Assembly: GCF_009914755.1 (NCBI RefSeq)
Contig: NC_060927.1
Strand: one strand, 5' to 3'
From: the human T2T-CHM13v2.0 reference genome, Homo sapiens
DNA length: 64,000 nucleotides
Part shown: piece by piece, positions 18,531 to 23,435 of the stretch
Numbering within the stretch: the stretch's first letter is position 1
How the letters are laid out: the number at the start of each line of letters is the position of its first letter
Made by a program: the position numbers and the translations under genes
Notes under the pieces: generated by a model
Databases searched by the model: none
Seen by the model: only the letters and a program-made list of their open reading frames with translations
Told to the model about the DNA's origin: nothing

Positions 18531-18849
<319 letters not shown>

Positions 18850-19368
18850 ACAGGCATATTGTTAATACCTCATGTAAATATAAATAATTTAACTCATCAT
18901 TTTACTACATAAAATTTATTGTTTAAAGTTATTGAATTATTAATACACTGCATGTATTATATAAGGTAGATATTTTCATCAACTACATTGGAAACTTTAA
19001 CTGTAATATTTTCTGAACTTTTATAAAACATGAGGGTTTGTTTTTACATTATTTATACTGTGAATTCAACATTAGCAGATTGTTGAGAATACAATTAAAA
19101 ACTCATAGTATTATTGAACTCATTGTATATATTTAAATAAGAATAAAATATTTTTTACTCCAAAAATGTTTACTCTTCCATGGTTGTTTAGTTCAAGATG
19201 GACCAGTGATCACTCACTTCAATTTTGAACAATCCTTTTAACTTTCTATAGCAAAGGCTGTTAAATGAAATAATATCTATAATTACGATTTTCCTATATT
19301 TTTTAAATTTAGAACTTTATATTTCATTTAATCAACCATCTTTAATCTTTCATAATTTTTTTTTTTTT

Positions 19369-19583
19369 CGGAGACAGGAGTTTTATTATTCAAATCAGTT
19401 TTGCCCAAGCATTCCAGGATCAGAGATTTTAAGGATAATTTGGCGGGTGGAGGAAAGCCAGTGAGTCAAGAGTGCTGATTGGTTGGCAGGAGATGAAACC
19501 ATAGGGAACTGAAGCTGTCCTCTTGCACTGAGTCAGTCAGTTCCAGGGTGAGCCACAAGATCACATGAGCCAGCTTATCAATC
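19369..19583 (-). mobile_element. LTR8-like (ERV1) fragment, apparently carried here as an L1 3' transduction
   Basis: ggagacaggagttttattatt...gaagctgtcctcttgcactgagtcag resembles LTR8; poly(T) on both sides; truncated just after its AATAAA on the minus strand. Confidence 0.8.
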
Positions 19584-19618
19584 TTTTTTTTTTTTTTTAA
19601 GATGTGTGGTATTATTTC

Positions 19619-20554
19619 TTTTTTTTTATTTTTATTTTTTATTATACTTTATGTTTTAGGGTACATGCGCACATTGTGCAGGTTAGTTACATATGTATAC
19701 ATGTGCCATGCTGGTGCGCTGCACCCACTAACTCATCATCTAGCATTAGGTGTATCTCCCAATGCTATCCCTCCCCCATCCCCCCACCCCACCACAGTCC
19801 CCAGAGTGTGATATTCCCCTTCCTGTGTCCATGTGATCTCATTGTTCAATTCCCACCTATGAGTGAGAATATGCAGTGTTTGGTTTTTTGTTCTTGCGAT
19901 ACTTTACTGAGAATGATGATTTCCAATTTCATCCATGTCCCTACAAAGGACATGAACTCATCATTTTTTATGGCTGCATAGTATTCCATGGTGTATATGT
20001 GCCACATTTTCTTAATCCAGTCTATCATTGTTGGACATTTGGGTTGGTTCCAAGTCTTTGCTATTGTGAATAGTGCCACAATAAACATACATGTGCATGT
20101 GTCTTTATAGCAGCATGATTTATAATCCTTTGGGTATATACCCAGTAATGGGATGGCTGGGTCAAATGGTATTTCTAGTTCAAGATCCCTGAGGAATCAC
20201 CACACTGACTTCCACACTGGTTGAACTAGTTTATAGTCCCACCAACAGTGTAAAAGTGTTCCTATTTCTCCACATCCTCTCCAGCACCTGTTGTTTCCTG
20301 ACTTTTTAATGATTGCCATTCTAACTGGTGTGAGATGGTACCTCATTGTGGTTTTGATTTGCATTTCTCTGATGGCCAGTGATGATAAGCATTTTTTCAT
20401 GTGTTTTTTGGCTGCATAAATGTCTTCTTTTGAGAAGTGTCTGTTCATGTCCTTCGCCCACTTTTTGATGGGGTTGTTTGTTTTTTTCTTGTAAATTTGT
20501 TTGAGTTCATTGTAGATTCTGGATATTAGCCCTTTGTCAGATGAGTAGGTTGCG
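19619..20554 (-). mobile_element. L1PA2-like 3' fragment (about 0.93 kb)
   Basis: Near-consensus ORF2 C-terminus ([20 protein letters not shown]...) and young 3'UTR (cacattgtgcaggttagttac); GAG rather than the Ta ACA diagnostic. Confidence 0.93.
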
Positions 20555-20662
20555 CATTCTCTAGAGAAGAACGATCACCAATAGCAAATGGCAGTTGGAA
20601 TAACGCAACACCAAACGCTGCTTTCACGCTCATGAGAGAACACAAATATCTCCTCCTCGTGG
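20553..20662 (-). pseudogene. U3 snoRNA (SNORD3)-like 3'-domain retrocopy fused to L1
   Basis: Minus strand ccacgaggaggaga...tgagcgtgaa...caactgcc...attggtgatcgttcttctct aligns by eye to U3 from about nt 76 (CCACGAGGAAGAGA...TGAGCGTGAAG...CAACTGCC...ATTGATGATCGTTCTTCTCT). Confidence 0.88.
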
Positions 20663-23435
20663 CATAATTTTCAAAAACCACAATTAAGTGGGCCTCCAGA
20701 AGACAATTAACAGTATCAGTTCCCAAGTTCTGATTTACACTGATTCATTACTGACAATATGCCTTTCTCTCATCTTACATCTTTCAAACTTTATACATAA
20801 AACTGGGTGTTGGCTTCCTGGATTTAACCTGGGCTCAATGTCATCACCATTCATAACCTTTCTCTTATTCTACCACTTTCAGATAATTTAGGTTTACTGA
20901 AGTCAGTAGCGGGTCTCCATCTGTTAGTCCTTCCTTCATGAATAGCGATCCGGCAGCCATCTAAAACAACTAGCAAGGTAAATGGAAACTTTGCTCAAAT
21001 GCATTTAAACAATTAAGACAAGAAAAATGAGAGAAATCCTCCATAATACATTTAGAAAGAGCACAATGCCGTTTTCAAAGTTTAGATGTCACTCATGTCT
21101 CTAAATTATTATCATGTGTAATTATTGAAATAATGAAAGATTTTACAAGTTTGCACTTAAGGGTCCCATGAAGCACATAAACTCCACTGTGTTAATTCCA
21201 TACTATAGACATCAAAGATGGAGTAATTCAAACTGAGTTTACAGAAATAACATAAATTTTAATCCAGTCACAGAATAAAGATATCATTATGAAACATTTC
21301 ATGAGGCTATCATTTCAAAAAGCCAAACTGGGCCACATGAATAAATAAATTCATAAATAAATACAACAAAAAATGGATATGAGATATTAATCTTCCACAG
21401 ATCTATAAATATACATCTGTCTATGAATTCATATTAATATTTATTTTGCCATAGGTCAAGAAAGCTTGAGAATGCAAGGGTGAGATGAAGGCAGAAAATA
21501 TGGTTAAGGAAGTGAGAAAAGTAAGATCTGACAGCTTAAGATTAGTAAATTCTCATATGGGATATTAGAAGCAAAGAACAACCCTAAAAGTTTGCAGGAT
21601 AATTTATTGTAATAGAATAATATGTTCTAAATTGTTTTACAAATTGTATCTTTATATAAAATGTAAATTTTATGTTTTTGTATTTTTTTATGTTTTAAAG
21701 CTTTACAATAGTATTACACAATAAAATGACAATAGAAATTATTCCATTGTATTAGAAAGTTAAAGTGAAAGCTTATTAAACCTTAAACTTCATAGAAAAG
21801 ATAGTAAAATATTCTAATCGGTTGCATTTTGAAGGATAGCTCATTTTAAAAAATATATATGAAATAATATAAATTAATTAGATTTAAGAAACATAGATCA
21901 TTGTTTTTTTCCAAAATTGTTTTACTAACTGATGTCAAAAAAGTGTCTTAAAATTAGTGCTCCTATCTCCCGTTTACTATTCTTCCCATATCAAACCCTT
22001 ACTTATTTTAGATATCAATTACCAGTTTAAAAGTAAACATGTAATAGTTGTAACTCTCCATAATTATGTTTTCTTCCATTAACTTTTAAATTTATCTTCC
22101 ATTGTTTTTCTTCTGTTATTCTGGGTCTAGTGCCTTACCATACAAAAGATACTGATTATAACTTAGTTGATATTTGAGGTTTGAAAGAGTGGTTGTGTTT
22201 TGAGTCCTTCAAATGTGTTTGAAAATTAAATCAACAACAACAATAAACATGTTTCTTTGATTGTAAGAGTACTTTTTGTTTGAGTAGGGAAAAAAAGCTT
22301 AGTAATATATCAAGTTAAATAATCTAAAACAATTATTACATTTAACACATGGAAGAGAAATATTGTTTTAAAAATATAGCATATACGGTTTGCCAATTGT
22401 ACTCAAAGCTCTTTTGTGGGTGACAGGCAGAGTCAACACCTTATAAAATGTAATTCACATTTGTGGACAATATTGACACTGACCAATAACCAATTTCCTC
22501 TCCTTGAGCATGACAGACACGATAGTTTGTGCTCATTTCCAGTTAGGCACAGGTATAGGACTAGTTCTGGGCAATGAAATGTGAGTAGAAGTAATGTTTG
22601 TTTTTTACAGTTGAGATAGTGACATTCTCTGCTCATGTGACATTCCCTGTTCACTCTCTCTTTCTCTCTCAGTCCAGCAATGATTGTAAAAGTTCTGAGG
22701 TTGTTACTGCATCAAAATTTAGTCTATATTGACTGTAATACTGTTAAACATAATTTCAAACATACATCATGATGATTCTTTACAACCCTGTATAGGAAGG
22801 CCAAGGGTAGTAGTCAAAGCCTGGCAGGAATCTTGTTTACCTAAAGATAAAAGCAGATGGTATAAGTGACATCTGCCAACAGACATAGGTGGAGGATACA
22901 GAAAAATTCACATAGTCCATCAGTTATATACATGATTTGAGTTACCCTCAGCACCTGTCTTTTCAATAAGAATCAGTTTAGCTAATACATGATCTCAAGG
23001 AGAAGAATGCCAGAGTCAAAGAATCAGGAGAGCAAAACAATAGTTTTCTAAATGGCCTGAATCATTTGTAAATTATCTACAATATTCAAATCCTGTAAGA
23101 CTAGAAGTTATATCATATTCCACTTACTCTGTGAATGAAAGTCCAAGGTTTAGAGGAGAGGAGAGAAGAACTAAGACCACTGTATGTTAAAACTCAACCA
23201 TTAATATTTCTTTTCATTTAATTAACTCACTTTCTGGGAGAACTTGATGTTTGGTTTGACTACTCAGTTTTTATTTCATGAGCACTACATCCTCTTATTT
23301 TTTAGGGCCTTCCTTTTATGTATCATAAGTTTCTGCAGTTTACCATCTGAACACTCTATAATTTTAACTTCCAGACGATTATTCTCCTCACATTATGCTA
23401 TGCAAAATTGATCCTTATCTGACATTCTTTCAACC

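What the first reader, a model, noticed from the sequence alone, without database searches (positions are those of the whole stretch)
19356..19640. Serial 3' transduction recording a three-generation L1 pedigree
Seen: three A tracts on the minus strand (19619-19640, 19584-19598, 19356-19368) separate a 20-nt tag (gaaataataccacacatctt) and about 215 nt of LTR8. The LTR8 piece ends about 13 nt after its AATAAA. Inference: a grandparent L1 donated the 20-nt flank, and the parent L1 landed inside an LTR8 and used that LTR's poly(A) signal.
Basis: partly seen in the sequence, partly recalled or inferred. Interest (0 to 1): 0.7.

Follow-up and report, generated by a model that had tools for sequence, protein, structure and literature searches.

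The report
Four-source L1 insertion preserving U3 fossil
This is one young jumping-gene (L1) insertion stitched from four sources: it likely carried along flanking DNA from two earlier, now missing landing sites (a known process), and it also holds half of an atypical small RNA gene whose living copy differs at 14 of 109 letters, likely because that gene has mutated unusually fast since.

Summary
The three A tracts, the 20-nt tag and the 216-nt LTR piece lie with the L1 inside one 9-bp target-site duplication. The LTR piece matches one solo LTR at chr20:15,669,209-15,669,424 (214/216; next best 84%), so it is not ancestral here. That donor has no L1 in CHM13, and no sibling or grandparent was found. 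The tag is not unique flank: it is ORF2 sequence of an older L1 (7,602 near-matches). Both captured pieces start at TC|AGA endonuclease-type sites and end 13-26 nt after AATAAA, so nested 3' transduction from lost sources is likely (0.72) but not shown; nested transduction is already known. This U3/L1PA2 chimera is catalogued (PMC13174262) and is the only one of 22 with the U3 3' half. I traced it to the atypical U3 in TEX14: shared stem-loop deletion plus 16 shared derived sites. All 14 differences lean to the TEX14 gene (12 clearly), roughly 10-30 times the change in the rest of the insert. The copy is likely a dated snapshot of a decaying, hypermutable RNA gene.

The parts
20663..20671 (-). 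Target-site duplication, 5' copy (AAAATTATG); the opposite strand reads TTTT/CA, a degenerate L1 endonuclease site
   Evidence: sequence
20554..20662 (-). 109-nt 3' half of the atypical TEX14-intron U3 snoRNA (from U3 position 76), sense to the L1, carrying the stem-loop deletion
   Evidence: Rfam RF00012 43.7 bits, gathering 34; best match chr17:59,499,505-59,499,613 at 87%; identity of that locus
19640..20554 (-). 5'-truncated L1PA2, last ~915 nt; 1-2 nt microhomology with the U3 piece
   Evidence: best relatives 97-98%; L1PA2 label from PMC13174262 Table S2
19619..19640 (-). First A-rich tail, containing AATAAA (last one 19630-19625)
19599..19618 (-). 20-nt tag: ORF2 sequence of an older L1, starting at a TC|AGAAA site about 405 nt upstream of where the chr3 L1 is truncated; inferred first transduction
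19584..19598 (-). Second A tract (15 nt)
19369..19584 (-). 216 nt = positions 366-581 of a 687-nt solo LTR at chr20:15,669,209-15,669,424 (minus); CCAAT at +103, TATA-like TTAAAA at +153, AATAAA at +198; inferred second transduction
19356..19368 (-). Terminal poly(A), 13 nt (last four A shared with the TSD)
19351..19359 (-). Target-site duplication, 3' copy

Best explanation
A single L1PA2 insertion bounded by one 9-bp duplication holds a U3 half, an L1 3' end, a 20-nt older-L1 tag and 216 nt of a chr20 LTR; the two 3' pieces are likely nested read-through transductions from a grandparent and a parent L1 that are absent from this genome, and the U3 half was likely joined by a template switch or RNA ligation during the same event. 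Inferred order: (1) a grandparent L1PA2 inserted into an older L1's ORF2 at TC|AGAAA, and its transcript was cut 25-26 nt past the last AATAAA of its own tail, taking in the tag. (2) Its daughter inserted in the same orientation into the chr20 solo LTR at TC|AGAT and read through to the LTR's AATAAA. (3) That RNA was reverse-transcribed at chr3; after about 915 nt of L1, synthesis continued on the 3' half of the TEX14 U3 RNA. Both source L1s would have been polymorphic and lost from this lineage. Since then the chr3 copy changed little while the transcribed TEX14 U3 gene gained 12-14 substitutions in the same 109 nt. Shown: anatomy, donors of the LTR and U3 pieces, nature of the tag, direction of the U3 differences. 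Inferred: existence of both source L1s, order of events, joining mechanism, cause of the fast change.
For: One TSD around all parts and no internal TSD. One LTR donor at 214/216, next 84% among 40 scored of 1,425 candidates. The chr20 junction is TC|AGA; 0 of 28 other LTR copies have it, and 3 of 687 positions in this LTR fit T[CT]|A[AG]A. The piece starts about 150 nt upstream of the TATA-like box, so an upstream promoter is needed (inferred from motif positions). The tag's ORF2 site is a real target: two Alus and one older L1 inserted there independently. The tag differs at 3-4 letters from the same place in one young L1 copy, and 16 of 19 examined tag-bearing loci align to the chr3 L1 at only 87-93% (three gave no alignment), so it is not the parent's own ORF2. 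A PAS 10-30 nt before the end is usual for transductions (PMC13009371, passages). Non-reference donors and nested transductions are documented. U3 and L1 were scored as contemporaneous by multi-species alignment (PMC13174262 Table S2).
Against: No L1 at the chr20 donor: 30 kb around it gave only one 68% old-L1 hit. No sibling, parent or grandparent in CHM13, though only 7 of 78 non-self hits and 3 of 15 were read. Two successive sources must both be lost. The TSD is only 9 bp and four of its bases are A shared with the tail. The insert already shows one RNA-to-RNA join, so further joins are not far-fetched. The last T of the tag is not in the common L1 version. TC|AGAT is a weaker endonuclease site than TC|AGAA.
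Confidence: 0.72

Rival explanations
1. Multiple template jumps in one event: reverse transcription began on a polyadenylated chr20 RNA ending in the LTR, jumped to the poly(A) end of an L1 RNA, then to U3. No L1 ever stood at chr20.
For: No L1 at chr20 in CHM13; the U3 join shows that this event joined RNAs; other LTR copies end in an A run at the same site (L008, L016, L023), so LTR-terminated RNAs are copied.
Against: The junction falls on a TC|AGA site private to this LTR copy (0 of 28 others; 3 of 687 positions). The LTR RNA would need a 5' end or a jump exactly there, upstream of its TATA-like box. The tag still needs its own explanation.
Confidence: 0.15
2. Two generations only: the parent at chr20 is real, but the tag is a templated filler picked up from older-L1 RNA or DNA when the parent inserted, not a transduction.
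For: No grandparent or other tag-bearing young L1 was found; 20 nt of a 7,600-copy sequence cannot be assigned to a locus.
Against: The tag starts at the cut site used by three independent insertions and ends 25-26 nt after AATAAA, as read-through predicts.
Confidence: 0.08
3. Separate insertions piled up at one site (an LTR retrocopy first, then the L1; or an older U3 pseudogene next to a younger L1).
For: The U3 piece is 13% from its closest relative while the LTR piece is 0.9% from its donor, which at first sight suggests different ages.
Against: One TSD encloses all, with no second TSD at the inner junctions. The U3 differences lean to the chr17 gene, not the copy. The shared deletion is reported in human and chimpanzee but not gorilla (PMC5967550). 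Published alignment calls U3 and L1 contemporaneous.
Confidence: 0.05

Closest known systems
U3/L1PA2 chimera hg38 chr3:80627044-80628077 (Law and Burns, Cell Genomics 2026, PMC13174262, Table S2)
   Same: The same element: strand, sizes, subfamily and spacing agree; listed as U3:76-175, contemporaneous by alignment.
   Different: The U3 sheet gives no TSD, no 3' tail pieces and no donor U3 gene; TEX14 and LTR8 do not occur in the main text or the six readable supplements. It is the only one of the 22 U3 rows that does not start at U3 position 1-8.
Nested 3' transductions: L1-Ta transduction family (Salvador-Palomeque 2019, PMC6425141); SVA with three sequential mobilisations (Ebert, bioRxiv 2020.12.16.423102)
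   Same: Internal poly(A) tracts separating captured flanks; donors can be absent from the reference (passages).
   Different: There the source elements were found; here both are missing, the subfamily is L1PA2, both flanks are repeats, and a snoRNA half is fused at the 5' end.
Atypical U3 ENSG00000212195 in TEX14 intron 2 (Hoeppner 2018, PMC5967550; PMC9055567)
   Same: Stem-loop deletion, box C variant and 16 further shared derived sites. Its published 3' flank and box sequences match locus L055 letter for letter.
   Different: The chr3 copy keeps near-typical box C' (6 of 7) and box B (9 of 10), which the present gene has lost. No link between the two loci was found in my searches.
Germline hypermutability of transcribed snRNA-type genes (Seplyarskiy, bioRxiv 2022.08.20.504670; bioRxiv 10.64898/2026.10.12.758683)
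   Same: Reported 14- to 32-fold excess (passages) brackets the 10-30-fold estimated here.
   Different: Those papers use present-day variants in spliceosomal snRNA genes; 'snoRNA' did not occur in either main text. Here the excess is seen as accumulated change against a fossil copy.

Membership tests
L1 insertion with 3' transduction | TSD encloses L1 and the extra 3' sequence | tested here: met
   9 bp, 20671-20663 and 19359-19351
L1 insertion with 3' transduction | Endonuclease-type cut site and terminal poly(A) | tested here: met
   TTTT/CA on the opposite strand; A13
L1 insertion with 3' transduction | Extra sequence maps to another locus and is not ancestral here | tested here: met
   chr20 214/216; no other part of the LTR in the 64-kb window
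L1 insertion with 3' transduction | Poly(A) signal 10-30 nt before each end | tested here: met
   13 nt for the LTR piece, 25-26 nt for the tag
L1 insertion with 3' transduction | A source L1 stands directly upstream of the captured piece in some haplotype | tested here: inconclusive
   Absent in CHM13, the only genome held; junction is an endonuclease-type site; other haplotypes and apes not available
Serial (nested) 3' transduction | Two captured pieces from different loci, each between A tracts | tested here: met
   tag = older L1 ORF2, LTR piece = chr20
Serial (nested) 3' transduction | Intermediate generations or siblings carry the inner tag | tested here: inconclusive
   None found in CHM13; not all weak hits were read
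U3/L1 chimeric retrogene | U3 sequence fused in sense to a 5'-truncated L1 inside one TSD | tested here: met
U3/L1 chimeric retrogene | U3 and L1 arrived together across species | not testable with these tools
   Taken from PMC13174262 Table S2, found_by_msa_prediction = 1
U3/L1 chimeric retrogene | Typical (not defining) form: U3 5' part starting at position 1-8 | tested here: not met
   Starts at position 76; 21 of 22 catalogued rows start at 1-8
LTR8 | Best match to the LTR8 family model | not testable with these tools

The most novel reading that the evidence does not exclude
The chr3 insert is a dated molecular fossil of the TEX14 U3 gene, copied from a natural 3' cleavage half of that RNA soon after the human-chimpanzee stem-loop deletion. 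It shows the living, still transcribed gene has since gained about 13% substitutions and lost boxes B and C', which argues for decay driven by transcription-linked hypermutation rather than a new function. The same insert records two lost L1PA2 source elements, one of which should survive at the chr20 LTR in some ape haplotype.
Probability: 0.55. Interest if true: 0.58.

Novelty: new variant of a known kind. Interest (0 to 1): 0.4.

Why it matters
The pedigree itself is a tidy case of a known process and has no evident function. The added value is the U3 half. Hoeppner et al. left open whether the TEX14 U3 is decaying or gaining a new function. A retrocopy made after the deletion gives an internal reference point: 12-14 changes on the gene's branch against 0-2 on the copy's, with loss of protein-binding boxes. 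That measures snRNA-type hypermutation over millions of years at one locus, and shows the atypical U3 was expressed in the germ line or early embryo. It also gives a precise prediction for ape genomes (an L1PA2 with this tag at chr20:15,669,424).

Tried and rejected
Grandparent candidates rejected after reading: chr10:127,746,359 and chrX:44,841,042 are Alus in the same ORF2 site; chr9:128,312,031 is an older L1. chrX:125,430,171 and chr10:26,631,447 share only 11-13 nt after the tail. chr3:5,521,500, chr6:56,620,991 and chr21:11,815,040 are L1 ends next to this ORF2 region with different junctions. Relatives sharing two rare 3'UTR variants (4 non-self places): chr4:159.63 Mb and chr1:13.47 Mb were read and have no tag; two were not read. 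The alignment was uninformative (non-homologous). The L089 row was misaligned (inverted L1), was dropped from the distance figures and redone. The last four columns are L1, not U3, and were dropped. An independent hairpin skip as the cause of the U3 deletion was rejected because 16 other derived sites are shared with the chr17 gene. The one readable supplement of Tang 2018 (PMC6191304) had no hit for the hg38 coordinates and is too small to be a locus list, so human specificity is open. Szak 2003, Macfarlane 2013, Brouha 2002 and Beck 2010 were not held and were not read; the locus may be listed there or in Buzdin's catalogues. mmc7.pdf of PMC13174262 and bioRxiv supplements were not seen.

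Full report
1. Observation. On the minus strand the window reads: L1 3' end, A-rich tract 19640-19619, tag 19618-19599, A15 19598-19584, LTR piece 19584-19369, A13 19368-19356. AATAAA at 19387-19382 lies 13 nt before the end of the LTR piece. The insertion is larger than the finding: upstream of about 915 nt of L1 (20554-19640) lie 109 nt of U3 snoRNA (20662-20554; Rfam RF00012, 43.7 bits against a gathering score of 34). The 9-mer AAAATTATG stands directly before the U3 piece and directly after the last A tract. Four of its bases are A shared with the tail; the other five occur at 0.27% of nearby positions. No second TSD occurs at the inner junctions.

2. The LTR piece. A genome search gave one near-identical donor, chr20:15,669,209-15,669,424, at 214 of 216; the next best of 40 scored matches (1,425 candidates) was 84%. 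It is positions 366-581 of a 687-nt solo LTR, and no other part of that LTR occurs in the window, so the piece is not ancestral at chr3. The donor is uninterrupted in CHM13; 30 kb around it hold only a 68% old-L1 match. Two features point to a former L1 there. The junction is TC|AGA, found in 0 of 28 other copies and fitting a pattern that only 3 of 687 positions in this LTR meet. The piece also starts upstream of the CCAAT (+103) and TATA-like (+153) motifs, so the LTR's own promoter is unlikely to have made it (inference). Some other copies end in an A run at the same place (L008, L016, L023), so this poly(A) site is used.

3. The tag. It is L1 ORF2 sequence: 7,602 matches at up to 2 mismatches against 20 for the control. 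Of the 15 other exact matches, 14 are in the same ORF2 context and none follows a poly(A). Of 19 tag-bearing loci examined besides chr3 (the output lists 20 rows with the chr10 Alu locus), 16 or 17 align to the chr3 L1 at 87-93% and the rest gave no alignment; the tag lies about 405 nt upstream of the chr3 truncation point, and one young L1 copy differs from it at this place. So it comes from an older L1, not from the parent itself. Its start, TC|AGAAA, is a proven target: two Alus and one older L1 inserted there independently. It ends 25-26 nt after the last AATAAA in the first tail. This is what read-through past a TSD gives. But no young L1 followed by the tag exists in CHM13 apart from chr3: one search found only self; the two other hits, 3 of 15 and 7 of 78 were read and rejected; one search found no second exact poly(A)-LTR junction (three 2-mismatch hits not read). 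Two relatives sharing rare variants have no tag.

4. The U3 piece. The best match is chr17:59,499,505-59,499,613 at 87%; SNORD3-type genes on 17p match at 74-76%. The chr17 locus is ENSG00000212195 in TEX14: its 3' flank and its box C', B and C variants match those printed in PMC5967550 (supplement row) and PMC9055567 (passages). The chr3 copy shares its roughly 21-nt stem-loop deletion and 16 further derived columns. Hoeppner et al. (section 11 read) report that deletion in human and chimpanzee with gorilla intact, Pol II support, and 78 SNPs in 196 nt; they left decay or new function open. In 109 columns the two differ at 14. Against nine old U3 pseudogenes and SNORD3, all 14 lean to a change in the chr17 gene; two are ambiguous, leaving 12:0 (binomial p 0.0005; 14:0, p 0.0001). 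The copy keeps near-typical box C' (6 of 7) and box B (9 of 10).

5. Rates. The LTR pair differs by 0.93% (95% interval 0.11-3.3%), about 0.5% per branch. The L1 differs by 2.2-2.4% from its six best relatives, at most about 1.2% per branch. The TEX14 gene's branch is 11-13%, so roughly 10-30 times faster. Reported germline excess at transcribed snRNA genes is 32-fold (19-50) and 14- to 26-fold (passages of two preprints); neither names this gene. Caveats: small counts, some of the 14 sites may still be polymorphic, and a lost paralogue as donor cannot be excluded without ape genomes.

6. Mechanism. Most likely (0.72): grandparent L1PA2 in an older L1's ORF2, parent in the chr20 LTR, then reverse transcription at chr3 with a switch or ligation to the U3 3' half; both sources polymorphic and lost. 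The anatomy and donors are shown; the source elements, order and joining step are inferred. Rivals: multiple template jumps without a chr20 L1 (0.15), templated filler as tag (0.08), piled-up insertions (0.05).

7. What is known. The U3/L1PA2 chimera is row 4 of the U3 sheet in Table S2 of PMC13174262 (hg38 chr3:80627044-80628077, U3:76-175, contemporaneous by alignment; section 10 read). It is the only one of 22 not starting at U3 position 1-8; most others end near 70-76, where this one starts, which fits the cleavage those authors propose (inference). Nested transductions and non-reference donors are in print (passages). I found no paper linking this insert to TEX14 U3 or to the chr20 LTR (searches; term look-ups); four older L1 transduction papers were not held, and unseen supplements may list it.

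8. Verdict. Observation confirmed, interpretation partly supported and unproven. New variant of a known kind. Interest 0.40, carried mostly by the U3 fossil rather than the pedigree.

Noticed in passing
window 19332-19390 (minus): A predicted terminal exon of lncRNA LOC105377177 (19332-22840, hub annotation) ends about 20 nt past the insertion, 50 nt after the LTR's AATAAA and 9 nt after an ATTAAA at 19346-19341. The captured poly(A) signal, or priming on the A tracts, may define this predicted end.
   Followed up: no
L071 (chr10:127,746,359), L072 (chrX:44,841,042), L076 (chr9:128,312,031), L086-L088: The same short ORF2 region of older L1s has received at least three independent insertions at one cut site and three more nearby: a recurrent endonuclease target inside L1.
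   Followed up: partly
L056, L057, L062, L063, L065, L067-L070: Nine old U3 pseudogenes resemble the TEX14 U3 lineage more than SNORD3 at several columns, suggesting that TEX14 U3 or a shared older state was their source.
   Followed up: no
L055 (chr17, about 60 nt upstream of the TEX14 U3): A stretch resembling the SNORD3 upstream element at the same spacing; the PSE label is recalled. The 5' half of the gene is also diverged from SNORD3.
   Followed up: partly
L058 (chr17:19,138,051): One SNORD3-type copy has its own 6-nt deletion in the same terminal stem-loop.
   Followed up: no
L064 (chr8:47,447,131): An internal U3 fragment sits directly beside L1 sequence in opposite orientation; possibly another chimera or an L1 insertion into a U3 pseudogene.
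   Followed up: no
L008, L016, L023, L024: LTR copies that stop at or near the poly(A) site and continue in an A run, i.e. likely processed LTR-terminated RNAs; L016 and L023 look like a duplicated pair.
   Followed up: no
window 18545-18850 (minus): An Alu-like element with an A tail about 500 nt downstream of the insertion; it explains the weak SRP and microRNA Rfam hits.
   Followed up: no
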